From a virus (Duplodnaviria > Caudoviricetes), in IMG/VR virus record IMGVR_UViG_3300027710_000022, positions 11,076-75,075 of that record: DNA of 64,000 bases; one strand, given 5' to 3'. Position numbers and translations under genes: made by a program. Shown one piece after another: positions 21,470 through 42,664 of this stretch. The first letter of the stretch is position 1; every line of letters starts with the position of its first letter. Below the pieces are notes generated by a model. It was not told the DNA's origin and did not search any database. It worked only from the letters and a program-made list of their open reading frames with translations.

Positions 21470-22720
21470 ATGGGTAACAACAAAATTTTCATTCAAATTG
21501 CATCATATCGAGATCCGCAATTAATACCAACAATAAAAGACTGTATTAAAAACGCAAAAAAACCTGAAAATTTGGTTTTTTCAATTGCTTGGCAAAGGTC
21601 AAAAGAAGATGTGTGGGATAACTTAGATGAATTTTTAAATGACGAAAGATTTAAAATAATCGATATTAACTACGAAGACTCTAAAGGTGCTTGTTGGGCC
21701 AGAAATCAGTTACAACAACAATATAATGGTGAGGAGTATACAATTCAATTAGATTCACATCATAGATTTGCGGAGAATTGGGATGATGATTGTATAAAAA
21801 TGATTAAACAATTACAAAAGAAGGGACATAAGAAACCTTTATTAACTGGTTACGTTTCATCATTTGATCCTGATAATGATCCAGCAGGTAGAATTCAAGC
21901 ACCGTGGAAAATGAACTTTGACAGATTTATTCCTGAAGGTGCAGTGTTTTTCTTACCAGCAACAATAGATGATTATCAAGAAAGAACTGAACCAGTTCCC
22001 GCTAGATTTTATTCTGCACATTTTTGTTTTACTTTAGGTTCATTTGTTAAAGAGGTTCCACATGATCCTGAATATTATTTTCACGGAGAAGAAATTTCTA
22101 TTGCAGTAAGATCATATACTTGGGGTTATGATTTATTTCACCCACATAAAACAGTTGTTTGGCACGAATATACTCGTAAAGGTAGGACTAAACAATGGGA
22201 TGATGATAAACAATGGGTTAGTAAAAATGTACATTGTCATAAAAGAAATAGAAAACTATTTGAAATGGATGGTGAGGTAAAAGATGTTGATTTTGGAATT
22301 TACGACTTCGGTAAAGAAAGAACTTTGGAGGATTATGAAAGATATGCCGGTATTTCATTTAAAAAGAGAGCGGTACAAAAATATACAGTTGATAATAATT
22401 TAGCACCTAACCCTCCTTTATATGGTGATGAATTTAATAATTCATTCTTATCAATTTTTAAACACTGTATAGATGTTACATTTGATAGAGTACCTGAAAA
22501 TGATTATGATTTTTGGGTGGTTGCTTTTCATGATGAAAAAGACGAAACTCTTTTTAGAAAAGATGCAGATAGGGATGAAATAAAAAGATTAAAAAATGAT
22601 CCTGACGGATACTGTAAAATTTGGAGGGAATTTACGGTGGAAAGTAAACCAAAATATTGGGTTGTTTGGCCACATAGCGAATCTAAAGGTTGGATGGAAA
22701 GAATAAAAGGAGATTTATAA
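21470..22720 (+). CDS. GlcNAc-type glycosyltransferase (Skp1-hydroxyproline GlcNAc-transferase-like family)
   Basis: IFIQIASYRDP, GACWARN, IQLDSHHRF, YFHGEEI, GYDLFHP motifs. Confidence 0.85.
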   Translation: MGNNKIFIQIASYRDPQLIPTIKDCIKNAKKPENLVFSIAWQRSKEDVWDNLDEFLNDERFKIIDINYEDSKGACWARNQLQQQYNGEEYTIQLDSHHRFAENWDDDCIKMIKQLQKKGHKKPLLTGYVSSFDPDNDPAGRIQAPWKMNFDRFIPEGAVFFLPATIDDYQERTEPVPARFYSAHFCFTLGSFVKEVPHDPEYYFHGEEISIAVRSYTWGYDLFHPHKTVVWHEYTRKGRTKQWDDDKQWVSKNVHCHKRNRKLFEMDGEVKDVDFGIYDFGKERTLEDYERYAGISFKKRAVQKYTVDNNLAPNPPLYGDEFNNSFLSIFKHCIDVTFDRVPENDYDFWVVAFHDEKDETLFRKDADRDEIKRLKNDPDGYCKIWREFTVESKPKYWVVWPHSESKGWMERIKGDL

Positions 22721-22728
22721 AAAGTAAT

Positions 22729-23496
22729 ATGAAAATATGTTTTGCAACCGAGGTAACATATGAAAATTATGTTAATAGAATTAAGAAAAGTTCGTTAAGT
22801 TGGTTTTTAGAAAGGGAATTAGATAAAAGAGGAATTTCATATTATATATCAACAAATTTACCAAATAATTTTAATGAATATAGTGACAATGATTCTATAA
22901 AGGTTTTTGATATTGAGGACCTAAGAAAAAATCATCCTACTTCGAAACAATATGAATTATTTCCTGAAGACCCGAGGGGGTTATATCCTTCTAGATATCC
23001 TTGGAATATGAGGAGATTCATTATTGAGAAGGCAGCACAAGATGGATATGATTATGTGATTTACATTGATGCTGATAATATGGTTATTTCACATTTAACA
23101 ACTGATGATATCATCAACACATTAGTTGCAACTTACGAACCGAATGTTGTGTCAACTAACTCCGCAGTTTTTAGATACGAGGGTAGAAAACCAGATGATG
23201 TATTCCAATACCATGACAAATATATTGAACATTTTAATTTAAACTTTAAAGACGAACAATACGACACTATAGATGGTCCCGTACAAGTTTTTATGGGAAA
23301 CACAAATGAAGATATATTAAGATTTACATCTAACTGGCATAAATTTACTGATTTTGGTTACGCACAAGAATTTGGGTTTGGTTATGGTAATAATAAACAC
23401 GGTAATTTATCATTTGTAATTCCAGTTTCAAATTTTAAATTAGAATGGAAGGGGTTTCCATTTAGTCCTCATCATAGACCTGAAGATAGGTATTAA
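22729..23496 (+). CDS. GT-A fold glycosyltransferase-like protein
   Basis: YDYVIYIDAD DxD motif; sits in the glycosyltransferase cluster. Confidence 0.6.
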   Translation: MKICFATEVTYENYVNRIKKSSLSWFLERELDKRGISYYISTNLPNNFNEYSDNDSIKVFDIEDLRKNHPTSKQYELFPEDPRGLYPSRYPWNMRRFIIEKAAQDGYDYVIYIDADNMVISHLTTDDIINTLVATYEPNVVSTNSAVFRYEGRKPDDVFQYHDKYIEHFNLNFKDEQYDTIDGPVQVFMGNTNEDILRFTSNWHKFTDFGYAQEFGFGYGNNKHGNLSFVIPVSNFKLEWKGFPFSPHHRPEDRY

Positions 23497-23521
23497 TAAT
23501 TATAAAAGATTTAAATCACAT

Positions 23522-25042
23522 ATGTTTAGTATTGATGGTGTTGTATTAGCAAATAAAGGGTTTTATGTAAATTTGGATTCGTCTGTAAATCGCAAGAATC
23601 ATATTGAAAATCTAATTTTAAAACATAATATTGTTGGTTTAGAAAGATTTAGTGCGTTGAGAGATGAGTTAGTACAATCGTCATGTACCAAAAGTCATTT
23701 AGGAATTTTTAAACAGGCTTTAGATGAGGATTTAGAAATTATATTTGTTGGTGAGGATGATTTTGACATAAAAGAATATTGCTACGCACCATATAGTGAT
23801 ATTCCCGTTAGTTTTAATGAGTCTATAATGAAAATTTCAGAGGACTTAAAAAATGTAGAATGGGACGTATTATTGTTTGGGTGTAATCCAAAATCTCATT
23901 TAATTCCTGTTACGGAAAATTTAGCAAAAAACTATTTTAGTACTGGTGCATGGGCATATCTAATAAAAAAGAGAGCTTATAATTATATTTTAGAAAATTC
24001 AAATTACTATAGAGATTATATTGCAATAGATGATTATCTTCCACTTTTAAGTAAAAAGGGGTTTGTTACTTTAACAACAATACCATTAACAATTAACCAC
24101 GCAATTGGATTTGAATCCACTTTACAACCTAGAGGTCCTGTTAATTACGATGCATGGATACAAGGTAGTTATGGTAAATTTTTATACGGGAATTATAAAG
24201 AAAAAAGTTTTAATAGTATGTCATTAGAAAAACAAACAACGGTAGTAATAACGGGTCATTATGTTGAGAATTATTTTTTTTATTTAAGTTATCTTTTACA
24301 TAGTTTACCTGACGAATTATTAAAATGTAGATTTATTGTTCATTATGATGAAGGACATGGTCACGATAGTTCGACTCAAAAAGTTAAATTAAATGCATTT
24401 TTTAGAGACTATGATAAAAACATCAATGTAACTTTAAGTTATGGGTACGGTGGATTAATATCAAGTTTAGAATCGGTAATGGAACAAGTAACAACTCCAT
24501 ATTTTATATTTTTAGAACATGATTGGGTATTTTTGAAAAAAGACAATATTGATTTTCTAAATTTAATGAAGGCATTTAATAATCATGATTTTATAAATGC
24601 CGTTTGGTTTTCAAAAGATGACAATACAATGAGAGGTTTTGATATTGCTAGAGATATCGATGATGTAACAACTCCTTTTGGTAAGGAGGATAGAGTAAGT
24701 GAGGTTAATTTAGTAACAACTTGTAGATGGTCAAATAATCCTGTTATGTTCAGATTGAGTAAATTAAAAGAATGGTATTATAACATAATTAAAAATGAAT
24801 ACGTTGGTGTCGTTCATCAGGCTCAACAAAATATTGAAGAAACAATGATACCTCATTATAGGGATATAATTAGTAAAAATAAATGGTTAGATATTAGAGA
24901 TAATTGGGGAACCTTTTTATATGGTGCATTAAATGAAGGTCCGTATGTTGGTCACACTGACGCATCAAAAAGATACCAAGGTATTGCAAAATCAGGTCCA
25001 GAATATAATGGTGAGGAATATATAAAAAATAACCCATTATAG
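23522..25042 (+). CDS. Two-domain glycosyltransferase (GT25-like plus GT-A)
   Basis: YVNLDSSVNRK...CTKSH...GEDD...WDVLLFG (GT25-like); second domain YFIFLEHDW. Confidence 0.75.
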   Translation: MFSIDGVVLANKGFYVNLDSSVNRKNHIENLILKHNIVGLERFSALRDELVQSSCTKSHLGIFKQALDEDLEIIFVGEDDFDIKEYCYAPYSDIPVSFNESIMKISEDLKNVEWDVLLFGCNPKSHLIPVTENLAKNYFSTGAWAYLIKKRAYNYILENSNYYRDYIAIDDYLPLLSKKGFVTLTTIPLTINHAIGFESTLQPRGPVNYDAWIQGSYGKFLYGNYKEKSFNSMSLEKQTTVVITGHYVENYFFYLSYLLHSLPDELLKCRFIVHYDEGHGHDSSTQKVKLNAFFRDYDKNINVTLSYGYGGLISSLESVMEQVTTPYFIFLEHDWVFLKKDNIDFLNLMKAFNNHDFINAVWFSKDDNTMRGFDIARDIDDVTTPFGKEDRVSEVNLVTTCRWSNNPVMFRLSKLKEWYYNIIKNEYVGVVHQAQQNIEETMIPHYRDIISKNKWLDIRDNWGTFLYGALNEGPYVGHTDASKRYQGIAKSGPEYNGEEYIKNNPL

Positions 25043-25043
25043 A

Positions 25044-25664
25044 ATGAAGATTAATCTTTTTACCGGATGGTATTATGTACCTAAAAATCCTATAAGGGAG
25101 GACGAGTTTAATTTTTGTTATGAAAAAAATAAAAAACTAAACTTTGGTGAGTATTATATTGATAGAACTCAAAGACCGACTTATAATTCATTTTTAAACG
25201 AAATGAAAAAATATCCAAATGATATTAACATAATAGCAAATCCTGATAATTTTTTTGACGAGAAATTTTTAAATGATGTATATGAACTATACTCCAAATA
25301 TGAAAACAAAGAAAAATTGTGTTTAGGGTTAACAAGATGGAACTATATCAATGAGGGAGATGTAAGATATTTTAATGCCAAGGACTCACAAGATATTTTT
25401 ATATTTTACGGTTCAGTAGATTTAAACGTTGGCGAACAAATACCTTTAGGTAGACCCGGATGTGATAATAGATTGGCGGCAATATTAATAAATGATTTAA
25501 AAATGGATGTCTTTAACCCAAGTTTAGATTTAAAATATTATCATTATCACCCATCTGACGATTCAACAAGAACCTATTTAAATGAAAAATTAGAAAGGAC
25601 TGAATTTGTTATGGGACCTCATGAATTTATATATTCATGTAGATTAAATGATGTTAAAAAATAA
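25044..25664 (+). CDS. Glycosyltransferase-like hypothetical protein
   Basis: IIANPDNFF...SQDIFIF...LGRPGCDNRLA; within the glycosyltransferase cluster. Confidence 0.5.
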   Translation: MKINLFTGWYYVPKNPIREDEFNFCYEKNKKLNFGEYYIDRTQRPTYNSFLNEMKKYPNDINIIANPDNFFDEKFLNDVYELYSKYENKEKLCLGLTRWNYINEGDVRYFNAKDSQDIFIFYGSVDLNVGEQIPLGRPGCDNRLAAILINDLKMDVFNPSLDLKYYHYHPSDDSTRTYLNEKLERTEFVMGPHEFIYSCRLNDVKK

Positions 25665-28014
25665 AATTATGGAAATTGTTAATAAGATATTGTCATTTGA
25701 CAATAAAAAAATAGATGGTAGTATAATAAATGATGAACAAATAAAAAATTTAGTTTTTTATTTGTTAGACTCAATTGATAATAATGTCGACGGAGATGTT
25801 GTTGAATTTGGATGTTATGTTGGTGAGTCCAGCAAATATCTAATGAAAACTTTACTAGAAACAAATTCAAGTAAAAAACTTTTTGTTTATGATTCTTTTG
25901 AGGGTCTTCCTCCATTATCTAAATGGGAGGAAAATACAGGATGGAGAGCAGGGACGTTAAAAAGTACCGAAGAAATACTAATATCAAATTTTGAACAAAA
26001 CAATTTACCAACACCAATCATCCATAAGGATTGGTTTAAGGATGTCCCTGAAGATAAAATACCTGAGAAAATATCCTTTGCATTTTTAGACGGGGATTTT
26101 TACGATTCAATTTATGATAGTTTAAATAAAGTTTTTGATAAAGTTACTGATGGAGGTTACATATGTTTTCACGATTATCAAAGAAATGATTTACCGGGTG
26201 TTCGTGCGGCAATAGAGGATGTTTTTAAAGAAAAAGGTGTTGATTATACCGTAGAGGAAGTTTGTGGTCAATTAGGAATTTACAGAAAAAATAGTACCAT
26301 TGAAAATAGAATACCCCAAAGACCAACTAGTGAAGTTAATTATGGTGGGACAACAATCGTTACAGGTATTTGGGACATTAAAAGAGAAGAACTTACCGAA
26401 GGGTGGAGTAGAAAATTTGACCATTATTTAAATCATCTTTCTAATTTAATGAAGACAGATGATAACATGATAATTTATATTGAGGAGAAGTATAGGTCAT
26501 TTGTTGAGGACCATAGACCCAAAGAAAACACATTAATAATTGTTAGGGAGTTGGAATGGTTTAAGAAGAGTGAATTTTTTAACAAAATTCAAAAAATAAG
26601 AAATGATTCTAATTGGTCCAACACTTCTGGTTGGTTACCTGAAAGTACGCAAGCAAAATTGGAAATGTATAATCCAATTGTTATGTCGAAGGTATTTCTT
26701 TTAAATGACGCATCAATAATGGATCCGTTCAATTCATCACATTTAGTTTGGGTGGATGGTGCAATTACAAATACTGTACATGAAGGATATTTTTGGAAAG
26801 ATGGGGTAATTAAAAACGTTTCTAAATTTTTTAATAAATTCTCATTTGTTTGTTTTCCTTATGACGGAAAAGTTGAAATACATGGATTTAAGTATAATGA
26901 AATGTGTATCTATTCTGAGGATGAGGTAAACAAAGTTGCAAGAGGAGGTATATTCGGGGGTCCAAAACATTTAATAAGTAAAATCAACGAAATATATTAT
27001 TCATTATTAAACGATACCCTATCTAACGGTTTAATGGGTACGGAAGAGAGTATATTTACAATCATCACATACAAATATCCTGAACTAGTTCAGTATTTTG
27101 AAATTGAACAGAATGGATTGTTGGGTTTGTTTTTTGAAAATTTAAAAAATGGTAATTTAATTCCGAGACAAGAAAAAAGTGAAACGATAAAAATAAATCC
27201 TCATAGTAAAGAAAATATTGCACTTTACGTAATGACGTATAATTCACCAAGTCAGTTTGAAAAATTATGTATGTCGTTTGAAATGTATGATAGAAATTTT
27301 TTAGATAGACCTAAGAAATTTTTATTAAATAATTCAATAGATTCGGATACAGATTTAACATATTCAAATCTTTGTGAAAAATATGGATTTACTGAAATTA
27401 AAAAAGGTAATTTAGGTATTTGTGGTGGTAGACAATTCATATCAGAACATGCTGATGAGAATAATTTTGATTACCATATGTTTTTTGAGGATGATATGTT
27501 TTTTTATTTAGGTGATGATGAGTTTTGTAGAAATGGATTTAGAAGAAAAATAAAGGACTTCTATAATGTCATGTTAGATATCATATGGAACGAAAACTTT
27601 GATTTTTTAAAATGGAATTTTAGTGAGTTCTTTGGTGATAATACAAGACAGTGGTCTTGGCATAATGTACCTGGCGATACAAGAGCTCGGTTATTCCCTG
27701 AAAAACCTGTTAAAATAAATAATGACCACAACTACGCTCCCTATTTAAATTTTAAAAACATTAAGTCATATAAATCGGTACCGTACGCATCGGGAGAGAT
27801 ATATTATTGTAATTGGCCACAAATAGTCTCAAAAGAAGGAAATAGAAAAATGTTTATAGATACAAAGTTTGCCAATCCATTTGAGCAAACGTGGATGTCT
27901 TTTATATATCAAGAAACATTAGAAGGTAAGATTAAACCGGGAATATTATTAGCAACACCAACGGAACACGATAGGTTCGAATTTTATCCAAGAGAGGACA
28001 GGAGAGAAAATTAA
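25648..28014 (+). CDS. Fusion of TylF/MycF O-methyltransferase, HtrL/WlaTC-like glycosyltransferase and a GT-A domain
   Basis: GDVVEFGCYVGES, DSFEGLP, FAFLDGDFYDS, FHDY (TylF); TTIVTGIWDI...LVWVDGA (HtrL-like); MFFEDD. Confidence 0.8.
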   Translation: MMLKNKIMEIVNKILSFDNKKIDGSIINDEQIKNLVFYLLDSIDNNVDGDVVEFGCYVGESSKYLMKTLLETNSSKKLFVYDSFEGLPPLSKWEENTGWRAGTLKSTEEILISNFEQNNLPTPIIHKDWFKDVPEDKIPEKISFAFLDGDFYDSIYDSLNKVFDKVTDGGYICFHDYQRNDLPGVRAAIEDVFKEKGVDYTVEEVCGQLGIYRKNSTIENRIPQRPTSEVNYGGTTIVTGIWDIKREELTEGWSRKFDHYLNHLSNLMKTDDNMIIYIEEKYRSFVEDHRPKENTLIIVRELEWFKKSEFFNKIQKIRNDSNWSNTSGWLPESTQAKLEMYNPIVMSKVFLLNDASIMDPFNSSHLVWVDGAITNTVHEGYFWKDGVIKNVSKFFNKFSFVCFPYDGKVEIHGFKYNEMCIYSEDEVNKVARGGIFGGPKHLISKINEIYYSLLNDTLSNGLMGTEESIFTIITYKYPELVQYFEIEQNGLLGLFFENLKNGNLIPRQEKSETIKINPHSKENIALYVMTYNSPSQFEKLCMSFEMYDRNFLDRPKKFLLNNSIDSDTDLTYSNLCEKYGFTEIKKGNLGICGGRQFISEHADENNFDYHMFFEDDMFFYLGDDEFCRNGFRRKIKDFYNVMLDIIWNENFDFLKWNFSEFFGDNTRQWSWHNVPGDTRARLFPEKPVKINNDHNYAPYLNFKNIKSYKSVPYASGEIYYCNWPQIVSKEGNRKMFIDTKFANPFEQTWMSFIYQETLEGKIKPGILLATPTEHDRFEFYPREDRREN

Positions 28015-34320: not shown

Positions 34321-34730
34321 TGGTGGAGGTGACGGGACTCGAACCCGTGTCTTTCCTGTTCAACAATAAATGACTACACGTTTATTCAATTAGTTCACAA
34401 CTGACAAATATTTGGTTCCTATTTTGACATCGTTACCAACAACTGTGTCGAGTTCACTTTTGTTACGGTAGTCCTCTGAACGAGACCGTTTGTTTCTTTT
34501 TGGGTAGAAACCACACCTTAAGTACTTCTGTTCCTAGGTTATATGTACGTCGACCCGATTGTAGTTTCGCCTTAGGCTACTGCTACGTTAGAAGTTGCAA
34601 GAATACCTGCTACTTCCATGTTGTTGTAAACGTTGCCGTCTAAAATTTTCCACCGTAGATTTAAGTCATAGATGAAGTCTGACTACGTGCCACTTACCCC
34701 TGATACCTGAAATCAATGCCAGGCACCCCC
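34321..34730 (-). ncRNA. ssrA: tmRNA
   Basis: 5' GGGGGTG pairs with 3' CACCTCC-A-CCA including the G3.U70 Ala determinant; T-arm CGGG-TTCGAGT-CCCG; internal tag frame 34637-34572 (GNVYNNMEVAGILATSNVAVA*) after TTAGAC. Confidence 0.92.
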
Positions 34731-34749
34731 ATATTTTAAAGAACTTATA

Positions 34750-34781
34750 CAAATGTAGATGAAAAAGGGTTAAAAAACAAA
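34750..34781 (-). promoter_or_regulatory. Bacteroidota sigma70-type promoter for tmRNA
   Basis: TTTG (34778-81), N20, TACATTTG (34750-57) on the minus strand. Confidence 0.75.
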
Positions 34782-35153: not shown

Positions 35154-35843
35154 CTAAAATCGATTAACCCTTAAAGGGAAGTGTTTCTCATATAATGCTT
35201 CAAAAAACAACTTATTTTTCTCCCATTGTTTATTAGTCATACCAATAGATTTGTGTGTTACCATTATTTTAGTGGTAACCCCAACTTTAATTCCATCTAA
35301 ATGGTTGTCAACACAAAATGGTAAATCATAAAAATGAAACCCTGTAAATTCTTCATTAAACTTATGTTTAATTCTACCTTTATGAACCATAATAAACAAT
35401 CCATCAACAATTACCACTTCTTTTGGTTTGTCACCAAATGATTGTTTTGAATAGTGATTTACATGTCTTTTACCTTCATGTTCATGACCCACAACACCAT
35501 ACATAGATTCTCTATCTTGCCACCACATTCCACTCATTAAGTTATCAGTACCTGCCAATCCTAAAATTCCATATTCAGGATTTTCTTCAAAAAGTCTAAC
35601 AACTTTTGGTGTAATGTTGGAAGTTTCTAAAATAAGATCATCATGCATAAACACAACAATATCATGTTCAGAATCTTGTAATCCTGTGTTATATATTTTA
35701 GGTAGAGAATCCACACCATCATTCTCATAAATTAATATTTGAGTTTTAGGGTGTGAAAACATTTTCTCAACGTGTTTTAAATAGACATCATCAATTTTAC
35801 GTGTTGAGATGACGACACTTATTGGTTCATTATATTTCGACAT
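35154..35843 (-). CDS. Glycosyltransferase family 2-like protein
   Basis: IYNTGL...IVVFMHDD...GILGLAG...VDGLFIMV...FHFYDLPFC. Confidence 0.8.
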   Translation of the reverse strand: MSKYNEPISVVISTRKIDDVYLKHVEKMFSHPKTQILIYENDGVDSLPKIYNTGLQDSEHDIVVFMHDDLILETSNITPKVVRLFEENPEYGILGLAGTDNLMSGMWWQDRESMYGVVGHEHEGKRHVNHYSKQSFGDKPKEVVIVDGLFIMVHKGRIKHKFNEEFTGFHFYDLPFCVDNHLDGIKVGVTTKIMVTHKSIGMTNKQWEKNKLFFEALYEKHFPLRVNRF

Positions 35844-36579
35844 GTGTTGCGATTATTTCACCATAAACTTCTTGAAGGTCTATGATTATTGGTTTATTAA
35901 TTGGACTATATCCAGGATTACATATTGACGCATTTACAAATAATGTTTTATTACCGATCTCAACACCGTAACCTTCGTGAATATGACCAAATACACTTAC
36001 TAATGGATTTATTTCTTCTATTCTATTTCGTAACAACTCACAACCAACATTCGTATTTGGTTGTCGCCAATTATTAACTAAATCTCCATATCCATTTGGT
36101 GGTCCGTGTGTAATTAACACGTCGGTATCGGTTGGGATGTTATTCCATTTTTCTAACAACTCTTCACCCATTCTCGGTAAATTAAAAGCCCAATCATAAA
36201 ACCATGGTTGCCAAGGACTACCATAAAATTTAATAGGTCTTGAAAATTCATCACTTTCAATTGTTATAAAACTATCCTCTAAATAAGTTACATCAGATTG
36301 AGATAAATTTTCGGGTGACATTAAATTATGTAACCAATCATAATCACCTTTATGGTGAGGTTGATTAACTCTTTCAAAACAATGGTCGTGATTACCTGAT
36401 ATGAATATTTTTTCATCAAATCCTTTAATGTTTTGAAACCAATGAATAAATTCGGTAACATCCCTTTCTCCACCTCGATTAGAAATATCACCCGCATGTA
36501 TTAGCACATCACCAGATGGTATTTCGTGGGCCATACCACTATGTAAACTATGTGTGTCAGATATACAAACGATTCTCAT
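35830..36579 (-). CDS. Calcineurin-like metallophosphoesterase
   Basis: CISDTH, HAGDIS, SGNHD, THGPP, FGHIHEG motifs. Confidence 0.92.
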   Translation of the reverse strand: MRIVCISDTHSLHSGMAHEIPSGDVLIHAGDISNRGGERDVTEFIHWFQNIKGFDEKIFISGNHDHCFERVNQPHHKGDYDWLHNLMSPENLSQSDVTYLEDSFITIESDEFSRPIKFYGSPWQPWFYDWAFNLPRMGEELLEKWNNIPTDTDVLITHGPPNGYGDLVNNWRQPNTNVGCELLRNRIEEINPLVSVFGHIHEGYGVEIGNKTLFVNASICNPGYSPINKPIIIDLQEVYGEIIATHVEI

Positions 36580-36613
36580 AATATCAAATATAAGTAAAAT
36601 TTATTAAAATGCA

Positions 36614-36640
36614 TAAAAAAAGTCAGAATAAATCTGACTA
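36614..36640 (-). terminator. Intrinsic terminator closing the large ncRNA unit
   Basis: Minus strand AGTCAGA-TTTAT-TCTGACT followed by a T-tract. Confidence 0.75.
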
Positions 36641-36649
36641 ATTTTTTTT

Positions 36650-37513
36650 GGGCCGAACGGTTTTAAAACGTTCCAATTCCACCACTTTGTTTTACTAAAC
36701 AAAGAAAAAAAACACTGAGAATACATGTTTTAACAATTGACTTGGGGACATTATTTGATTCTTCCCTTTTCCACTACCTTTTGAGTAGTACCAATCAGCG
36801 GCGGTCAATTAGATTAACCAATCCTTAAGTCGTTATATACTCTTTTAATACTCATTACTCATCAAAGATGCCTCCCTGATTCAACCTTGCGGGTTTAGAG
36901 AACTTTTTTAAAAATCACATTGGGCTTGAGACCCTTTGTGGCCGTGAACCCCTCACGACTATGTAGCCACCTGTCTACAACGACTGACGAACACTTTTTC
37001 TTGTATGATTTTAAGTTGTTAAACCAAAATTAACAAAATTTAGTTTCCGAATTTGGGAAAGTAGTGGTTCGTCGACCAGCCAAGCCACCTTTTGAGCGAC
37101 TCGATACTAAACTACTCTCTGTAACATCCCTGCTACCATATTTTTGGACCCCTTCAAAACTAAACTCTTGGTAGAGTTTAATAAAGGATGATAACGACAC
37201 CACTCGTACTTCACCATACCTTTCGGTTTTAAGATTCCCATCATATTGAATCACGCAATTGTAAAGTCGGATAACGATACTTCTCACAATAACTCTATGG
37301 ATTATTCTTATTGGTGTTCCCACCTCAACCAAACAACTCGGATTGCTTGGTCGTCAAACCACTTTCCCTAAAGTGTTACCCTCAGTACTTAAGGTTTAAC
37401 GATACTCCACTTGCCTACTCGAGATCCATTACTGAATCCGCAACTCACCCCAACCAAGGGTTTGTCACTTTATCCCACTTTCATGGTTTATTTTAATCGA
37501 CCATAGGCGGCCA
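36650..37513 (-). ncRNA. Large (~860 nt) structured ncRNA, GOLLD-like candidate
   Basis: No credible ORF; own promoter and terminator; ends pair (GGCCG/CGGCC); many hairpins including GNRA loops and two identical UCAAAAG loops; next to a tRNA array. The family assignment is inference. Confidence 0.75.
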
Positions 37514-37551
37514 ATATTTTTAAATCAAAGAACTATTTCTTGTTTCTTTTA

Positions 37552-37582
37552 CAAAGATAAGAAAACTTTTTTAAAAAACAAA
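37552..37582 (-). promoter_or_regulatory. Bacteroidota sigma70-type promoter for the large ncRNA
   Basis: TTTG (37579-82), N19, TATCTTTG (37552-59); AGTTCTTTGA at 37525-34 just downstream. Confidence 0.75.
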
Positions 37583-37589
37583 ATATTTT

Positions 37590-37823
37590 TTAATTATTTT
37601 CTACTTTATTTTTTTTCAATGTTTTTTTAGAAGATACTTTCTCAGTTGTCTTCTTTGTCTTGTACTCAGGATTTTTATAAAGTTTATATTCGGTCTTTGG
37701 TGCAAATGACCAATAACCACCCTTAACTCTTAAATCCGCTTCATTGTCATCTACTCTCAGTACCTCACCAATTTCATGACCCTTACTTGCTTTAATTAAT
37801 TTAATACATTTCATATTTTCCAT
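37590..37823 (-). CDS. Small basic hypothetical protein
   Basis: 77-aa ORF. Confidence 0.6.
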   Translation of the reverse strand: MENMKCIKLIKASKGHEIGEVLRVDDNEADLRVKGGYWSFAPKTEYKLYKNPEYKTKKTTEKVSSKKTLKKNKVENN

Positions 37824-37864
37824 GTTTATAATAAAATATAAGAAATAAAAACCATAAAAAAAAA

Positions 37865-38692
37865 TTAAAGTACATTTCTTTTAAATTCCTTATTAACTAA
37901 ATTTGGTTCATCGTCATAACCAAAGAAGATACATTCTTTTTTAAACATTTCACATACGGTCAAATACTCATTAAGTGTAATTTCATCATAATAGTAATTC
38001 GGATTTTTTGAATGGTGATATCCTGACAAAGAATCCTTAAAATAGGTATAGAAAACCATAAATGAATTATTCATACCGTTTGGAAAATCTTTTAAAAAAT
38101 AAAATGGTTTTATATAGGGTTTATTTAATATGCCAAAATTTTTTAAATTACTTTCACTTAATAAATTGTTATTAATTTTTACAATATCATTAATATCCTC
38201 TATTCTAAAAAATCTATAATTATAATTTTCAAAACGTTTATCATATTCTTTTCTAAAATTAAAATTTAAATTTGATATAATTTCATTACCCAATGGGTCA
38301 TTTAGAAAAAAAGAACTTTGTGGTAAAAAATGAGTATCATTTGAACTTTCAATAAAAGAGTTATATTTTTGAATAAATTTTGATAAGGAGTCTATCTCAA
38401 GATCCTCAAATGTTTTTAACGACTCTTCTGTTCGTTCTAACTCTTTTTTTGTTAGTTTATTTAACATATTAAGGTCATATAATCTTTTCAACTTTACATA
38501 CCAATCGTATGACGAAAAAAATCTATCGATAGGGTTTCTTATAAATAAGAAACAATTTTTTTCTAATTCTTCATTAACAAAATTAAACTCGATTGAATTT
38601 AATTGTAATATATCTGATAAAGTTGAGTAAATTATTGTATTTCCAGATTTATGGGGGATAATAAAACTTGTATTATATTCAGGTACATTCAT
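37865..38692 (-). CDS. Sulfotransferase family 2-like protein
   Basis: PHKSGNT (5'-PSB-like), FLFIRNPIDRFFSSY (3'-PB-like), HFLPQ, terminal FFGY. Confidence 0.7.
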   Translation of the reverse strand: MNVPEYNTSFIIPHKSGNTIIYSTLSDILQLNSIEFNFVNEELEKNCFLFIRNPIDRFFSSYDWYVKLKRLYDLNMLNKLTKKELERTEESLKTFEDLEIDSLSKFIQKYNSFIESSNDTHFLPQSSFFLNDPLGNEIISNLNFNFRKEYDKRFENYNYRFFRIEDINDIVKINNNLLSESNLKNFGILNKPYIKPFYFLKDFPNGMNNSFMVFYTYFKDSLSGYHHSKNPNYYYDEITLNEYLTVCEMFKKECIFFGYDDEPNLVNKEFKRNVL

Positions 38693-38735
38693 ATGTGTAT
38701 TATAAATACCATTAGGTTAACAAGAACAATTTTTG

Positions 38736-38886
38736 CTGTAGTGGGTGGGTTCGAACCACCAAGTGGAGATTCAACCGATAACATGACGCTTGCAAGCTGG
38801 TGGTCTACCCCCTAATATTATCAATCTGTTTCTTTGTCCACACCCCCGAGACAGGAGGGTACGTTTGCCAATTTCGTCACACTACA
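38736..38886 (-). tRNA. tRNA-Asp(GTC)-like RNA with an 82-nt extended variable region
   Basis: Acceptor TGTAGTG/CACTACA, G73, D-arm ACG/CGT, anticodon arm CCCTC-CTGTCTC-GGGGG, T-arm GGTGG-TTCGAAC-CCACC. Confidence 0.65.
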
Positions 38887-39079
38887 ATATAACACCCTTT
38901 TATCAGCCGAAGCCTCACATAACCTTAGTGTGGAACCACAGGTAGGTGTCATGAATGATTACCACTGAGAATGTAGATTTTCACTAACTCGATTTAGCGG
39001 TCTCTATGGTAATTTTTTTGATGGATGAAAAACATCTATTTTTCTTGCGGATTTCCATCGGAATCCCATAATTTAAAAG

Positions 39080-39153
39080 TGGACCAGATAGGAATCGAAC
39101 CTATTACCTTCACATTATGAGTGTGCCGCTCTAACCGAGTGAGCTACAAGTCC
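39080..39153 (-). tRNA. tRNA-Met or Ile2 (CAT)
   Basis: Cloverleaf with loop CT-CAT-AA; elongator Met versus lysidine Ile2 cannot be resolved by eye. Confidence 0.85.
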
Positions 39154-39224
39154 AATTAATAGGTGGGGCTTAATTATTTAACTCTTTACCACCATTAAGT
39201 CTTTAATGCTTTAGACACCTATCG

Positions 39225-39298
39225 TGATCCCGTTTGGATTCGAACCAAAGACCCACATCTTAGAAGGATGTTGCTCTATCCAACTGAGCTACGGAACC
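39225..39298 (-). tRNA. tRNA-Arg(TCT)
   Basis: GGTTCCG/CGGGATC acceptor; ACATC-CT TCT AA-GATGT. Confidence 0.92.
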
Positions 39299-39414
39299 AA
39301 AGTAATGTAATGTCTGTACGGTTTGTATCTAATCCACACCTTTGTACGTGTTTCAAAAGTTTCCATTTCATACGTAGCGTCTGTTCCGTCACTTATTTCT
39401 AAGTCATTACATTG

Positions 39415-39499
39415 TACCTGGGGCGGGACTTGAACCCGCACGGGACTTTCGCCCCAACAGATTTTAAGTCTGTCATGTATACCATTTCATCACCCAGGC
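39415..39499 (-). tRNA. tRNA-Leu(TAA)
   Basis: GCCTGGG/CCCAGGT; ACAGA-CT TAA AA-TCTGT; long variable arm with a GAAA loop. Confidence 0.92.
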
Positions 39500-39616
39500 A
39501 TTTGTTTTTCCAATACATCAAAGAACTATAATCAAATATAAGAATAAAAAATGATATAAAAAAACCCCGAACATTTTTTTTAGTTTGTTCGGGGGAATTA
39601 ACTGAACTAAAAATGT

Positions 39617-40066
39617 TTATTTTACTTTATACGATAACCCAAGTCCTAATGTAAAATCACTACCAACTAAATTACCGATAGTCCATAAATTTATGACATT
39701 ACTTGGTCTAAGTGGATTGTACATTATAAGAAAATTTGGTTTATTACCATTAATTGTTGGTTGTAACCCAAATCCAATAATTGCTTTGTCCTCTTTTAAT
39801 TCTCTAAGAACACCAAACTTCATATTATCAGATAAAGTTCCTGTATTGGTGTTGACACCAGGAGGAAGTGTTATTCCACCATTTTGGCTTTTCAATTCAC
39901 CATATGGAAGACCTGCATAAAACCCCCAACCTTTTTTCATAAAACCACCTGTTATATAACCATCTGATGGGCCACCTTTTCGAGTGGCGGTTATAAACCA
40001 CTCTTGCCCATTTGCCACGACTTCTACTCCCAAAAGTAACGTTAGCACTAAAAAAATTTTTTTCAT
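39617..40066 (-). CDS. Secreted/outer-membrane beta-barrel-like protein
   Basis: Signal peptide MKKIFLVLTLLLGVEVVANGQ; alternating beta strands; ends LGLSYKVK. Confidence 0.6.
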   Translation of the reverse strand: MKKIFLVLTLLLGVEVVANGQEWFITATRKGGPSDGYITGGFMKKGWGFYAGLPYGELKSQNGGITLPPGVNTNTGTLSDNMKFGVLRELKEDKAIIGFGLQPTINGNKPNFLIMYNPLRPSNVINLWTIGNLVGSDFTLGLGLSYKVK

Positions 40067-40365
40067 TTTTTTGATTTGGACAAGGAGTCTTCCGTTGCCC
40101 ATTTTTCTTTTAACTTTGCTACCTTCTCAATCTTTACAATTTTACCATTCAATTTGGTAATCTCGTCCGCGATTTCTTTGGTTTTGACGGCCCTGCTAGC
40201 GAAATTTTCATCTGTTACTTCAACCCATTCAATTTTTCTTTCCAGAGATTTAATCTCTTTCTTTATTTGATTGACTGACTTTCTTTCGTCTGAAAGACTT
40301 GGGTCGATAGATGATGTTAATGTATTAAAAAATAGCATTAACGATAGTGTGATTTTATCTATCAT
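40063..40365 (-). CDS. Coiled-coil hypothetical protein with a hydrophobic N-terminus
   Basis: 100 aa; TATTTATA at 40370-40377. Confidence 0.6.
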   Translation of the reverse strand: MIDKITLSLMLFFNTLTSSIDPSLSDERKSVNQIKKEIKSLERKIEWVEVTDENFASRAVKTKEIADEITKLNGKIVKIEKVAKLKEKWATEDSLSKSKK

Positions 40366-40443
40366 ATATTATAAATATTAATAATATGATAAATATACAG
40401 AATAAAATATTGTAAATCAATATCTTAATATAAAAAAATTTTG

Positions 40444-40515
40444 TACTCGGTACGGGATTCGAACCCGTGCAACCACCGTGAAAGGGTGGTGACCTAACCA
40501 CTAGTCGAACCGAGC
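40444..40515 (-). tRNA. tRNA-Glu(TTC)
   Basis: GCTCGGT/ACCGAGT; CCACC-CT TTC AC-GGTGG. Confidence 0.92.
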
Positions 40516-40751
40516 AAGTAATCACTCAAATGGGTATTTGTTATAATATCACAATTGTTGCACTATACTTTGGTTAATTACTCCGTCTGTATCCAACAGC
40601 TTTATGTTGGCTTATAATTGGCTACTTTATTATAACTCACATTTTTATTTGTGATTAATTAAGAACTAACATTGCTATCAGGGTTTAAATGGTTCACAGA
40701 TAAATCCGGAATCACCACCTACCGATTTTACGGTATCTTAGTTAATTCTTG

Positions 40752-40836
40752 CAGAGAGTTAGGGATTCGAACCCCAGATACCTTTCAGTATGCCAGTTTT
40801 CAAGACTGGTGCCATCAACCACTCGGCCAACTCTCT
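40752..40836 (-). tRNA. tRNA-Ser(TGA)
   Basis: AGAGAGT/ACTCTCT, G73; CCAGT-CT TGA AA-ACTGG; long variable arm. Confidence 0.92.
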
Positions 40837-40923
40837 AAAATTGATTCTAACTCACCTTAAGTTGCACCATCCGAGTCACTGCTCTGGTTGACAAAGTCCT
40901 CGTTGAGTTAGTCTCAAAAAGTT

Positions 40924-41133
40924 ACAGGTTTTTCGTACCATCTATGTACATCATGACCGAAGTTTGGTTGGATTTACATCACGTCTCAGCAAACTTTACT
41001 CGGTGGTTACATTTTCGTATTGGGGTAATTATTCCCGACTTATAGTAACTCTACCCTCACCGCCCTACCTCGCGAGTCAGACGGATCTTTTGGGATTCAT
41101 AGACAGTGGGGTTACACCACCGTCGTCACCTGT
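40924..41133 (-). ncRNA. Unassigned ~210-nt structured RNA
   Basis: Closed by ACAGGT/ACCTGT; internal helices GACGGTGG/CCACTGTC, GCGA tetraloop, GTTAC/GTAAC, ACCGA/TCGGT. Confidence 0.5.
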
Positions 41134-41135
41134 TG

Positions 41136-41209
41136 AGCCCAAACTCAGATTCGAACTGAGGACCTACTGATTACAAATCAGTTGCTCTGGCCAGCTGAGC
41201 TATTCGGGC
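41136..41209 (-). tRNA. tRNA-Thr(TGT)
   Basis: GCCCGAA/TTTGGGC; ACTGA-TT TGT AA-TCAGT. Confidence 0.92.
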
Positions 41210-41343
41210 TACTATGGAAAACAGAAGATGGGGGTGTGGACATCTGTTTTTATGATTGGCGTTTCTCGCTATTCGCTAGCCCCGTTAAATCCCAATCAAC
41301 CATTTGTTTTACAAAGATAAAAAATAATTTTAGATATTCCAAA

Positions 41344-42177
41344 TTATTTATTATCTTTTATATATTTTTTTAATATTTCAAATTCATTTTTAACAAATTC
41401 GGGGTCATAACTTCCCATATCTTTTATTATATATGGTTCATATCCCATTTTTTTAATCTCATTAATTTTAATATTGTCACGATTTTTAACTTGTTTAAGT
41501 GAATGTTTTTTAGTTATTTTTTCATAATGCCATTTACCATTCCACATAATTGCTAATTTATAGTCATTAATTATTACATCGGCATCCCATCCATTAAACA
41601 TATTTTCATTAGATAAAACATCGTTATATTCTTTTTTACAAAGTTCAAATAATAAAATTTCATTTTTACTTCTTTTACCTTGTTTTGATTTTTTACCACC
41701 CGCAGATCCCGAGCATTTGTATGAACAAAATCTTCCTTTTAAATTTTCTTTACGTTCAAAATGTTTACCACAGTTATCACATCTACGTATTGTATATTTT
41801 ATTTCTTTTTTGGGTCTCGGAGGTTTGTTTTTTAACGAAACAGATATTTTAATTCTTGTTTCTTCATTAAAATCTCTACTATTTGAACATTTATAAGAAC
41901 AATGTTTTGGGTAATCCCCTATTGAAAATATATGTTCAGTTACATTTATTTTATATTCTTTATCACATTTTACACAATTTAATATCTTTTCATTTTTAAT
42001 TTGGTTTTTTGTAATTAACGATTTTTCAATCATTAATTTTTTATTTGGGTTCATAGAACAATTAGTCACGTGAGCTCCTGCTTGTTGTTTCTTTTCAAAA
42101 ACAAACGTTTCATTACAAAACTTACATTTATATTCCATCATACTCATTAATATAATTAATAAATATGACAAAATCAA
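41344..42177 (-). CDS. Putative free-standing homing endonuclease (multiple zinc ribbons plus PD-(D/E)xK-like domain) inside the tRNA array
   Basis: CKFC, CVKC...CSYKCS, CDNC...FCSYKCS; C-terminal WDADVIINDYKLAIMWNGKWHY...RDNIK. The true start may be ~42141-42147. Confidence 0.65.
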   Translation of the reverse strand: MILSYLLIILMSMMEYKCKFCNETFVFEKKQQAGAHVTNCSMNPNKKLMIEKSLITKNQIKNEKILNCVKCDKEYKINVTEHIFSIGDYPKHCSYKCSNSRDFNEETRIKISVSLKNKPPRPKKEIKYTIRRCDNCGKHFERKENLKGRFCSYKCSGSAGGKKSKQGKRSKNEILLFELCKKEYNDVLSNENMFNGWDADVIINDYKLAIMWNGKWHYEKITKKHSLKQVKNRDNIKINEIKKMGYEPYIIKDMGSYDPEFVKNEFEILKKYIKDNK

Positions 42178-42179
42178 AG

Positions 42180-42266
42180 TTGCGGGTGCAGGATTCGAAC
42201 CTGACGTGTCGTTTTACCGACGTGTGCTTATGAGACACCTGAGTTTGACCACTACTCTAACCCGCA
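42180..42266 (-). tRNA. tRNA-Met(CAT) with an atypical long variable arm
   Basis: TGCGGGT/ACCCGCA; loop CT CAT AA; 18-nt variable region with a GTCG/CGAC stem. Confidence 0.75.
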
Positions 42267-42271
42267 AAATG

Positions 42272-42342
42272 TTGTCCCTCGTGGATTCGAACCACAACTA
42301 GATGGACCAAAACCACCTGTACTACCGTTATACTAAAGGACA
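42272..42342 (-). tRNA. tRNA-Gln(TTG)
   Basis: TGTCCTT/AGGGACA; GGTGG-TT TTG GT-CCATC. Confidence 0.92.
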
Positions 42343-42347
42343 ATATG

Positions 42348-42427
42348 TACCCAAGGTCGGACTCGAACCGACACGCCTTTCGACACGGTTTCTAAGACCG
42401 CTGTGTATACCATTCCACCACTCGGGT
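42348..42427 (-). tRNA. tRNA-Leu(TAG)
   Basis: ACCCGAG/CTTGGGT; GCGGT-CT TAG AA-ACCGT; variable arm with a GAAA loop. Confidence 0.92.
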
Positions 42428-42434
42428 ATTATTG

Positions 42435-42506
42435 CACGCATGTAAGGACTCGAACCTTCATCTTCGGTTTTGGAGACCGAAATTCTACCAATTGAACTAC
42501 ACACGC
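42435..42506 (-). tRNA. tRNA-Trp(CCA)
   Basis: TCGGT-CT CCA AA-ACCGA; G73; 5' end ambiguous by 2 nt (42506 or 42508). Confidence 0.88.
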
Positions 42507-42512
42507 GTTTTG

Positions 42513-42584
42513 CGTTGATGATAGGACTCGAACCTATAATCGTTCGGTTAACAGCCGAAAGCTTCACCATTAAGCTACATCAAC
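42513..42584 (-). tRNA. tRNA-Asn(GTT)
   Basis: GTTGATG/CATCAAC, G73; TTCGG-CT GTT AA-CCGAA. Confidence 0.92.
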
Positions 42585-42589
42585 AACTG

Positions 42590-42664
42590 TAGGGTAAAGA
42601 GGACTCGAACCTCCATGATACCTTGCTCCCAAAGCAAGTGACTTAGCCATTAGTCCATTACCCT
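42590..42664 (-). tRNA. tRNA-Pro(TGG)
   Basis: AGGGTAA/TTACCCT; CTTGC-TT TGG GA-GCAAG. Confidence 0.92.

What the first reader, a model, noticed from the sequence alone, without database searches (positions are those of the whole stretch)
36614..37582. Self-contained ~860-nt giant structured ncRNA gene (GOLLD/ROOL-class candidate)
Seen (minus strand): TTTG-N19-TATCTTTG promoter, boxA-like AGTTCTTTGA, ~864 nt with no credible ORF, then a terminator. The 5' GGCCG (37512-08) pairs with the 3' CGGCC (36655-51). Helices include ACCAAGCAA/TTGTTTGGT, TAAACTC/GAGTTTA, CACTTT/AAAGTG, ACC-GAAA-GGT, GTGGC/GCCAC enclosing CGTGA/TCACG, CTTTGTTT/AAACAAAG and long-range AATTGAC/GTCAATT. Two hairpins share the loop UCAAAAG (37087-95, 36776-84). 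Established: GOLLD RNAs are ~800-nt phage-associated RNAs found near tRNA genes, and GOLLD and ROOL form RNA-only multimeric cages. Inference: a GOLLD-like or new giant RNA family; the repeated loops may be tertiary or intermolecular contacts.
Basis: partly seen in the sequence, partly recalled or inferred. Interest (0 to 1): 0.85.

Follow-up and report, generated by a model that had tools for sequence, protein, structure and literature searches.

The report
GOLLD RNA gene in freshwater phage
The gene-free stretch is a true member of the known GOLLD family: a giant, elaborately folded phage RNA, relatives of which build RNA-only cages and whose job is unknown. It lies in an uncultured large freshwater phage, so the finding is real but the kind is not new.

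Summary
Window 36705-37512 (minus strand, 808 nt) is a GOLLD RNA. Rfam RF02032 matches 36712-37119 end to end at 309.6 bits (cut-off 150, E 1e-87). ROOL, OLE and HEARO give no match. The 5' half, which Rfam does not model, recurs with the 3' half in 43 non-identical IMG/VR phage contigs, some over 200 kb. On that alignment 98% of cells pair, and 141 of 197 predicted pairs show compensatory changes (70 of 102 in the 5' half).

The 100-codon frame is open in only 3 of 44 sequences. Contigs from RNA libraries of four freshwater studies lie on the RNA. The Bacteroidota-type promoter, the AGTTCTTTGA box and the terminator are all present.

The proposed GGCCG/CGGCC end closure has no covariation support and clashes with two covarying helices. 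Both UCAAAAG loops are nearly invariant across the family.

Extras: the GTTCTTTRA box also sits at a fixed distance before the phage tmRNA and tRNA-Leu genes, and this clade carries a conserved 3' trailer.

This scan has noted GOLLD many times on other DNA. Verdict: a new member of a known kind, function still unknown.

The parts
37552..37582 (-). Bacteroidota-type promoter TTTG-N19-TATCTTTG, with the extended -33 region TTTGTTTTTTA also seen before the tmRNA gene
   Evidence: 13 matches in the window against 5.1 expected. The same type lies at 34750-34781 upstream of the tmRNA. The -33/-7 consensus is from established knowledge. TAnnTTTG boxes were also seen in an Aquimarina rrn leader.
37525..37534 (-).
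   Evidence: GTTCTTT[AG]A lies 12 nt before GOLLD in 27 of 55 loci, 5 nt before the tmRNA in 12 of 18, and 16-21 nt before tRNA-Leu(taa). Background is 0.116 per kb per strand.
36705..37512 (-). GOLLD RNA core, 808 nt: the block conserved in all 44 aligned sequences, from GGCCG to the last hairpin plus its U8 run
37121..37512 (-). 5' domain (not in the Rfam model): about 16 helices, invariant loops GAAA (37482-37479), GGAA and GGGA, and ACC-GAAA-GGT (37227-37218)
   Evidence: nhmmer finds it next to the 3' half in about 55 loci; 70 of 102 pairs have compensatory changes; loop conservation.
36712..37119 (-). Conserved 3' domain, the Rfam RF02032 match
   Evidence: 309.6 bits, model positions 1-416 of 416, E 1e-87.
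36996..37056 (-). AU-rich linker of variable length inside the 3' domain; it holds no tRNA here
   Evidence: the least conserved columns, 599-681. ARAGORN finds no tRNA here. It corresponds by position to the disordered linker of env-38 (PMC12286853).
36986..37073 (-). Pseudoknot helix GACGAAC (37073-37067) with GUUCGUC (36992-36986) that closes the linker; it crosses the outer stem of the UCAAAAG hairpin (37119-37111 with 37065-37057)
   Evidence: both helices covary, for example CG 34/UA 9 and AU 21/GC 18/GU 5.
37081..37103 (-). Hairpin with loop UCAAAAG (37095-37089)
36772..36790 (-). Second hairpin with loop UCAAAAG (36784-36778)
36862..36895 (-). Two neighbouring hairpins whose loops hold self-complementary dinucleotides: CGCAA (36891-36887; GC switches to AU or CG in relatives) and GGCA (36872-36869)
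   Evidence: CGCAA 37, CAUAA 4, GUCGA 3; GGCA 41, CGCA 2, CGCG 1. The pattern matches the symmetric kissing loops L21a and L21b described in PMC12286853. The assignment of those loop names is my inference.
37163..37206 (-). Two hairpins with mutually complementary, nearly invariant loops: GUGGUG (37203-37198) and UACCAA (37173-37168). A candidate kissing pair.
   Evidence: Complementarity is read from the sequence. Whether the contact is within one molecule or between molecules is not known.
36651..36704 (-). Clade-specific 3' trailer: hairpin CUUUGUUU-AGUA-AAACAAAG (36704-36685), invariant UGGUGGAA (36684-36677), a second small hairpin (GAACG 36673-36669 with CGUUC 36659-36655), then GGCC
   Evidence: 16 close relatives keep it, with compensatory changes in the first hairpin. 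Distant GOLLDs lack it; an X15 RNA-library contig spans 36679-36799.
36615..36639 (-). Intrinsic terminator AGTCAGA-TTTAT-TCTGACT followed by T6
   Evidence: It is conserved in the close clade.
34321..34730 (-). Context: a phage tmRNA gene downstream on the same strand, with the same promoter type and the same leader box
   Evidence: The order tRNA array, GOLLD, one to three genes, tmRNA recurs in relatives.
39079..42664 (-). Context: 12 tRNA genes upstream on the same strand

Best explanation
Shown: window 36705-37512 (minus strand) is a GOLLD RNA gene (Rfam RF02032) in the stable-RNA island of an uncultured phage. Relatives of this phage are large (contigs of 213-316 kb) and live in fresh water. 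The RNA has a 5' domain of about 390 nt and the family's conserved 3' domain of about 410 nt, joined around a variable AU-rich linker. Both domains are held in shape by selection. The frame inside is not coding. The sequence is present in environmental RNA libraries.

Inferred from sequence:
- It is its own transcription unit. A Bacteroidota-type promoter at 37582-37552 puts the start near 37545. The leader carries AGTTCTTTGA, and an intrinsic terminator ends the unit near 36615, giving about 930 nt.
- The abundant species is probably the 808-nt core. It could arise by trimming the leader and the 3' trailer, or by stopping at the U8 run after the last hairpin.
- The host is probably a Bacteroidota bacterium.

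Inferred by homology only: like env-38 GOLLD (14-mer) and Streptococcus agalactiae GOLLD (12-mer), copies of this RNA assemble through kissing loops and A-minor contacts into a closed RNA-only cage. The 3' domains would form the ring, the 5' domains the caps, and the linker would point inward. The loops that would make such contacts are conserved here: the CAAAA loops, the self-complementary GC/AU/CG loop, the GGCA loop and the GUGGUG/UACCAA pair.

What the cage does is unknown. Because it is linked to tRNAs and a tmRNA under shared control signals, I favour a role in the phage's takeover or protection of translation during lytic growth.
For: - Family: 309.6 bits over the whole model against a cut-off of 150, E 1e-87.
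- 5' domain: found next to the 3' domain in about 55 loci. There are 43 non-identical full-length relatives.
- Structure: 98.0% of cells pair. 141 of 197 pairs have changes on both sides, against 40-60 in the slid controls. The covariation score is 0.577 against 0.07-0.12, and 0 of 500 shuffles reach it.
- The ORF is not conserved.
- Promoter, terminator and leader box.
- RNA libraries: contigs of four studies lie on 36679-37512, with summed word depths up to about 5e5 in X15 and 3e4 in X17.
- Phage context: tRNAs and a tmRNA, phage-type genes, relatives in IMG/VR viral contigs of up to 316 kb, and a GOLLD in a 634,780-bp uncultured phage record.
- Contact-loop signatures, compared with PMC12286853 and PMC12990946.
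Against: - Cage formation, subunit number and function were not tested here and cannot be tested with these tools.
- I could not align this RNA to env-38 or to the S. agalactiae GOLLD, so helix and loop names are assigned by position and pattern only.
- All homologs were collected with two sequence patterns from the 3' domain, so GOLLDs with other 5' domains were not sampled.
- The consensus structure was predicted from the same alignment on which the pairs were counted, which flatters the slid controls.
- The runs laid are assembled contigs. They cannot give the strand, the ends or the level of the RNA.
- The host assignment rests on promoter motifs alone. The scan of bacterial genomes gave only 4 true hits, all on short contigs from MAGs (metagenome-assembled genome bins).
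Confidence: 0.85

Rival explanations
1. It is a new giant RNA family that only resembles GOLLD.
For: Rfam does not model the 5' half. Blastn against the phage collection found only one weak match.
Against: The whole GOLLD model matches at twice the gathering score. The 5' and 3' halves always travel together. Published GOLLDs are described as a conserved 3' domain joined to a less conserved 5' domain (PMC12286853).
Confidence: 0.02
2. The stretch encodes a small protein (frame 37332-37030, 100 codons).
For: The frame is open in the window and in two close relatives.
Against: 41 of 44 homologs have early stops. Many have length differences that are not multiples of three. Substitutions follow base-pairing, not codons.
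Confidence: 0.01
3. The RNA is not an independent gene. It is made as part of a long precursor with the upstream tRNAs and cut out by tRNA-processing enzymes, and the promoter-like site is incidental.
For: In distant relatives a tRNA-Met directly abuts the GOLLD on its 5' or 3' side. One X18 contig runs at least 36 nt upstream of GGCCG in a relative.
Against: In this window two protein genes (37590-38692) lie between the nearest tRNA and the RNA. The promoter, box and terminator layout is repeated at the tmRNA and tRNA-Leu genes and is conserved in the close clade.
Confidence: 0.12
4. The cage is incidental or absent in vivo. The RNA works instead as a partner or decoy for the translation apparatus or for host defence nucleases that attack tRNAs.
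For: It is constantly linked to tRNA arrays and a tmRNA. PMC12286853 cites pull-downs of ribosomes with GOLLD. The leader box is shared with the tmRNA and tRNA-Leu genes.
Against: There is no direct evidence here. The conserved self-complementary loops are most simply explained by self-assembly. The two readings do not exclude each other.
Confidence: 0.25

Closest known systems
GOLLD RNA, Rfam RF02032 (Weinberg et al. 2009); env-38 GOLLD, 833 nt, 14-mer cage, PDB 9MEE (PMC12286853)
   Same: The 3' domain matches the model in full. The size (808 nt against 833 nt), the two-domain layout and the variable linker about 65-75 nt into the 3' domain are the same. So are the GAAA and CAAAA loops, the self-complementary kissing-loop pattern, the phage context beside tRNAs (env-38 lies downstream of a tRNA-Met) and the aquatic metagenome origin.
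   Different: It has its own Bacteroidota-type promoter with a GTTCTTTGA leader box. It has a conserved 3' trailer of about 55 nt before the terminator. The nearest tRNA is about 1.6 kb away, with two protein genes between. Residue-level correspondence with env-38 was not tested.
Streptococcus agalactiae GOLLD, 700 nt, 12-mer, PDB 9L0R (reviewed in PMC12990946), and the Lactobacillales prophage GOLLDs
   Same: Same family and the same 3' domain.
   Different: That form is shorter and is reported to lack P9, P11a-c and P21b and part of P7 and P10. The window's RNA has about 16 helices in its 5' domain and two adjacent hairpins where P21a and P21b would be, so it looks like the full consensus form. 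Its hosts are Firmicutes, and it sits in prophages rather than in large, probably lytic, phages.
Mycobacterium tRNA-array GOLLD with a tRNA embedded in the linker (Morgado et al. 2020, cited in PMC12990946)
   Same: A GOLLD inside a tRNA island.
   Different: The window's linker (37056-36996) holds only a short hairpin and no tRNA.
ROOL RNA (octameric or hexameric cage)
   Same: A large phage-associated RNA near tRNAs that forms cages.
   Different: The sequence and fold are unrelated, and Rfam gives no ROOL match at E<=1.

Membership tests
GOLLD (RF02032) | Covariance-model score at or above the curated gathering score (150 bits) over the conserved 3' domain | tested here: met
   309.6 bits, model positions 1-416 of 416, E 1e-87.
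GOLLD (RF02032) | The helices of the 3' domain are kept by compensatory change in relatives | tested here: met
   Helices 23-38: nearly all have pairs changed on both sides, for example 10 of 10 pairs in the long-range helix 36985-36976 with 36837-36828.
GOLLD (RF02032) | About 800 nt in two parts: a less conserved structured 5' domain, the conserved 3' domain, and a variable linker | tested here: met
   808-nt conserved block. In the 5' domain 70 of 102 pairs are compensatory. The linker columns 599-681 vary in length.
GOLLD (RF02032) | Encoded by phages or prophages, usually beside tRNA genes | tested here: met
   12 tRNAs and a tmRNA within 6 kb. Relatives lie on IMG/VR viral contigs and on a 634,780-bp uncultured phage record.
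GOLLD (RF02032) | Symmetric kissing loops with a self-complementary core (L21a switching between GC and CG; L21b conserved) | tested here: inconclusive
   The loops at 36891-36887 (GC 37, AU 4, CG 3) and 36872-36869 (GGCA in 41 of 44) show that pattern. Their identity with L21a and L21b is inferred by position, not by alignment to env-38.
GOLLD (RF02032) | Self-assembly into a closed homo-oligomeric RNA cage | not testable with these tools
   It needs in vitro transcription followed by mass photometry or cryo-EM.
GOLLD (RF02032) | The RNA is made, with expression rising during phage lysis | tested here: inconclusive
   Contigs of four metatranscriptome studies lie on the RNA. They are contigs, so strand, ends and timing are not shown.
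ROOL / OLE / HEARO | A match to the Rfam model | tested here: not met
   No match at E<=1 in 36300-37900 with permissive filters.
boxA (NusB/NusE antitermination site) | An RNA element in the leader of stable-RNA operons that matches the host's rrn boxA | tested here: inconclusive
   The box lies in the leaders of the GOLLD, tmRNA and tRNA-Leu genes and resembles the boxA consensus as I recall it. The one Bacteroidota rrn leader I read (Aquimarina, L158) instead carries AGTTCAYMGRRA three times.

The most novel reading that the evidence does not exclude
In this phage clade GOLLD is one of a small set of stable RNAs (GOLLD, tmRNA, tRNA-Leu) under a common, previously undescribed control signal. 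That signal is the GTTCTTTRA box, placed at a fixed distance from each mature 5' end. It could be a phage-specific promoter or antitermination element, or a processing mark. In addition, the RNA is first made with a conserved 3' trailer that repeats the invariant kissing-loop sequence GUGGUG. The trailer could hold back or tune cage assembly until it is removed.
Probability: 0.2. Interest if true: 0.5.

Novelty: new member of a known kind. Interest (0 to 1): 0.28.

Why it matters
GOLLD is among the largest bacterial and phage non-coding RNAs and forms a striking RNA-only cage, yet its function is unknown. This locus does not change what GOLLD is.

It does give a clean, self-contained example with a mapped promoter, leader box, core, trailer and terminator. 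It also gives a 44-sequence alignment in which the 5' domain covaries as strongly as the 3' domain, and evidence that the RNA is present in freshwater RNA libraries of several studies. The promoter type hints that the hosts are Bacteroidota.

The control box shared with the tmRNA and tRNA-Leu genes, and the conserved order tRNAs, GOLLD, tmRNA, strengthen the link between GOLLD and translation. They also offer testable handles on its function.

Tried and rejected
- **Whole genome:** none is held for the window.
- **Phage collection:** megablast of 20 kb around the RNA gave only tRNA-sized matches. Blastn of the RNA gave one partial match.
- **Bacterial and archaeal genomes:** a scan with a 19-base pattern from the 5' domain gave 19 loci. 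Only 4 are real, all on short MAG contigs binned as Woesearchaeota, Bacteroidetes and Methylocystis, and probably mis-binned phage DNA. No host can be named from them.
- **Flanks in RNA libraries:** the flanking genes (35600-36640 and 37576-38700) had no or almost no cover in the four runs. No DNA run was laid beside them, so I make no claim about transcript ends or relative level.
- **Possible fragment ends:** Illumina adapter letters directly abut contigs at 36715 (X19) and 37503 (X15). These are at most weak hints of where fragments ended.
- **Terminal closure 5' GGCC with 3' GGCC:** no covariation. The 3' side changes without compensation, and G37508 and C36655 are taken by other helices.
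- **GGC (37512-37510) with GCC (36802-36800):** RNAalifold also pairs these, but the columns are invariant, so that pairing is untested.
- **Trailer fold:** RNAalifold on the trailer alignment supports only the first hairpin and a GGU:ACC pairing. The second hairpin is my reading by eye.
- **boxA check:** the literature search for boxA with GTTCTTTGA returned only unrelated primer lists. Cyclobacterium (G001) gave no 16S match.
- **Weak Rfam matches:** mir-287 and RsaF, E 0.36 and 0.9, are chance.

Full report
**What is there.** The stretch 36614-37582 lies on the minus strand between a 77-codon ORF (37590-37823) and a metallophosphoesterase gene (35830-36579). A scan of the whole window against Rfam gives one strong non-tRNA, non-tmRNA match: GOLLD (RF02032) at 36712-37119, minus strand. 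The score is 309.6 bits against a gathering score of 150, E 1e-87, covering model positions 1-416 of 416. A permissive rescan of 36300-37900 adds nothing credible and shows no ROOL, OLE or HEARO match.

**Relatives.** A 29-mer from the first UCAAAAG hairpin occurs in 24 IMG/VR viral contigs. A degenerate 3'-domain pattern brought in more. With nhmmer, the window's 5' half (37120-37545) and 3' half were each found, side by side and on the same strand, in about 55 loci.

After removing identical copies, 43 full-length relatives remained, at roughly 72-98% identity. They were aligned with the window as A1. The block conserved in every sequence runs from GGCCG (37512) to the last hairpin and its U8 run (36705), which is 808 nt. 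Several carrier contigs are 213-316 kb. The only match in the phage collection is a 634,780-bp uncultured phage record. It carries its own GOLLD (287 bits) between tRNAs.

**Structure.** RNAalifold on A1 predicts 197 pairs. Counted on the alignment:
- 98.0% of cells form standard pairs.
- 141 pairs show changes on both sides, against 40-60 when partners are slid by 1-3 columns.
- The covariation score is 0.577, against 0.07-0.12 for the slid versions.
- No shuffle out of 500 reaches the observed values.

The 5' domain alone has 70 of 102 pairs with compensatory change, so it is as constrained as the 3' domain. Two caveats apply. The structure was derived from the same alignment, and all members were recruited through 3'-domain patterns.

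A pseudoknot helix, GACGAAC (37073-37067) with GUUCGUC (36992-36986), covaries and closes the variable AU-rich linker (37056-36996). It crosses the outer stem of the UCAAAAG hairpin, which also covaries.

- Five helices hold with covariation: ACCAAGCAA/TTGTTTGGT, TAAACTC/GAGTTTA, ACC-GAAA-GGT, CGTGA/TCACG, and CTTTGTTT/AAACAAAG in the trailer (close clade only).
- Three do not hold. CACTTT/AAAGTG varies on one side without compensation. GTGGC/GCCAC pairs only in this sequence. In AATTGAC/GTCAATT both strands have other, covarying partners.
- The proposed closure of the ends (GGCCG 37512-37508 with CGGCC 36655-36651) is not supported. G37508-T37503 pairs with GUAGGC 37418-37413, with UA 26/CG 18 and CG 20/GC 17/AU 6 at the two variable pairs. 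By my reading C36655 closes a trailer hairpin with G36673. The 3' sequence changes to CAGACC, CGAGCC or CGATCC with no matching change at the 5' end. Distant GOLLDs keep GGCCG but have no trailer at all.
- The two UCAAAAG loops are real and nearly invariant.

**Not coding.** The 100-codon frame 37332-37030 is open in the window and two close relatives only. The other 41 sequences have stops from codon 19 onward, and many differ in length by a number not divisible by three.

**Transcription unit.** TTTG-N19-TATCTTTG (37582-37552) fits the Bacteroidota -33/-7 promoter consensus (established knowledge). The pattern occurs 13 times in the window against 5.1 expected. One copy sits before the tmRNA and has the same TTTGTTTTTTA start. 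An intrinsic terminator lies at 36639-36615 and is conserved in the close clade.

Between the last GOLLD hairpin and the terminator, the close clade keeps a trailer of about 55 nt. It has a hairpin with compensatory changes (CUUAGUUU/AAACUAAG, UUCAAUUU/AAAUUGAA), an invariant UGGUGGAA, and a second small hairpin. The trailer repeats GUGGUG, which is also an invariant loop of the 5' domain (37203-37198). That loop is complementary to the nearly invariant loop UACCAA (37173-37168).

**The leader box.** AGTTCTTTGA (37534-37525) is not unique to GOLLD. GTTCTTT[AG]A lies:
- 12 nt before GGCCG in 27 of 55 GOLLD loci;
- exactly 5 nt before the tmRNA 5' end in 12 of 18 tmRNA genes (34745-34736 in the window);
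- 16-21 nt before tRNA-Leu(taa) (39527-39518 in the window).

The background is 0.116 per kb per strand, or about 0.005 expected per 40-nt upstream window. The loci are related, so these counts are not independent events, but diverged lineages are included.

At the tmRNA and tRNA-Leu genes the box follows a TAnnTTTG box by 4-5 nt. At GOLLD it follows by 16 nt. It resembles the boxA consensus as I recall it. However, the one Bacteroidota rrn leader I could read shows a different repeated motif. The box could be an antitermination site, a promoter element or a processing signal, and this remains open.

**Is it made?** The sequence is held by DNA runs from freshwater, riverine and subsurface metagenomes of at least nine studies, and by six metatranscriptome runs of five studies. 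I laid contigs from four RNA libraries (four studies) on 35600-38700. They lie on 36679-37512, with very high summed word depths: about 2.4-5.4e5 in X15 and 1.2-3.4e4 in X17. There are many single-base variants, as expected for a diverse natural population. One X15 contig (36679-36799) bridges the core and the trailer. Contigs cannot show strand, ends or level. The empty flanks are recorded only under Tried and rejected.

**Context and host.** The RNA sits in a stable-RNA island on one strand: 12 tRNAs (39079-42664), two protein genes, GOLLD, two enzyme genes, then a tmRNA (34321-34730). The same order recurs in relatives. In distant relatives a tRNA-Met abuts the GOLLD directly, as reported for env-38 (PMC12286853). 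No isolate genome carries this RNA. The Bacteroidota host is inferred from the promoters only.

**Comparison with what is known.** PMC12286853 and PMC12990946 describe GOLLD as an RNA of more than 800 nt from phages and prophages near tRNA islands. [quoted passage not shown] It assembles into 12- or 14-mer cages through kissing loops and A-minor contacts.

The window's RNA matches in size, layout and linker position. It also shows a loop whose core switches between GC, AU and CG (all self-complementary), next to a conserved GGCA loop. That is the pattern reported for the symmetric kissing loops L21a and L21b. I could not align to the solved sequences, so helix names are assigned by position.

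Function is unknown in the literature and was not tested here. Earlier notes of this scan also record GOLLD on other phage DNA, including Bacteroidota giant phages.

**Verdict.** This is a genuine, expressed, strongly structured GOLLD RNA: a new member of a known family. The shared leader box and the conserved trailer are modest, untested additions.

Noticed in passing
window 34736-34745, 37525-37534, 39518-39527 (minus strand); also L003, L008, L009, L024, L092, L106, L131: The box GTTCTTT[AG]A sits at a fixed distance before three kinds of stable-RNA gene: 5 nt before the tmRNA, 12 nt before GOLLD and 16-21 nt before tRNA-Leu(taa). This is far above its background density. It could be an antitermination site, a promoter element or a processing signal.
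   Followed up: partly
window 34321-34730 (minus strand): A phage-encoded tmRNA with an unusual predicted tag (GNVYNNMEVAGILATSNVAVA; ARAGORN reads only ATSNVAVA in some relatives). It is conserved downstream of GOLLD in the clade and has the same promoter type.
   Followed up: partly
window 36651-36704 (minus strand): A clade-specific 3' trailer holds the invariant UGGUGGAA. This repeats the invariant 5'-domain loop GUGGUG (37203-37198), which is complementary to the loop UACCAA (37173-37168). No explanation was tested.
   Followed up: partly
L058 2371-2444, L059 11602-11675, L062 1505-1577, L092 8675-8747, L094 2394-2467, L138 8271-8343; also L014, L034, L035: In distant relatives a tRNA-Met(cat) directly follows the GOLLD 3' end, or lies 155-411 nt upstream of it. 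This suggests co-transcription and processing in those lineages.
   Followed up: no
L001 (LR745206.1 417453-423663), 3423-3828: A 634,780-bp uncultured phage record, which has no annotation, carries a GOLLD (287 bits) flanked by tRNA genes.
   Followed up: partly
L002, L005, L023 and L070, L073, at the ACC-GAAA-GGT hairpin (A1 columns 356-394): Some relatives carry an extra small hairpin inserted into the GAAA hairpin, for example ACCGUAGCGUAGCAAUACGGAAGGU. This is a tolerated expansion site in the 5' domain.
   Followed up: no
window 38693-39078 and the tRNA spacers 39500-41343: There are several hundred bases of non-coding spacer between tRNA genes and before the first tRNA-Met. Other first-stage notes propose tRNA-like or structured RNAs there. 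I did not examine them.
   Followed up: no
window 21470-28014 and 35154-35843, 37865-38692: The window holds many glycosyltransferase, methyltransferase and sulfotransferase-like genes, including a 416-aa protein matching phrog_24687 at E 1.9e-179. This suggests DNA or surface glycan modification functions around the RNA island.
   Followed up: no
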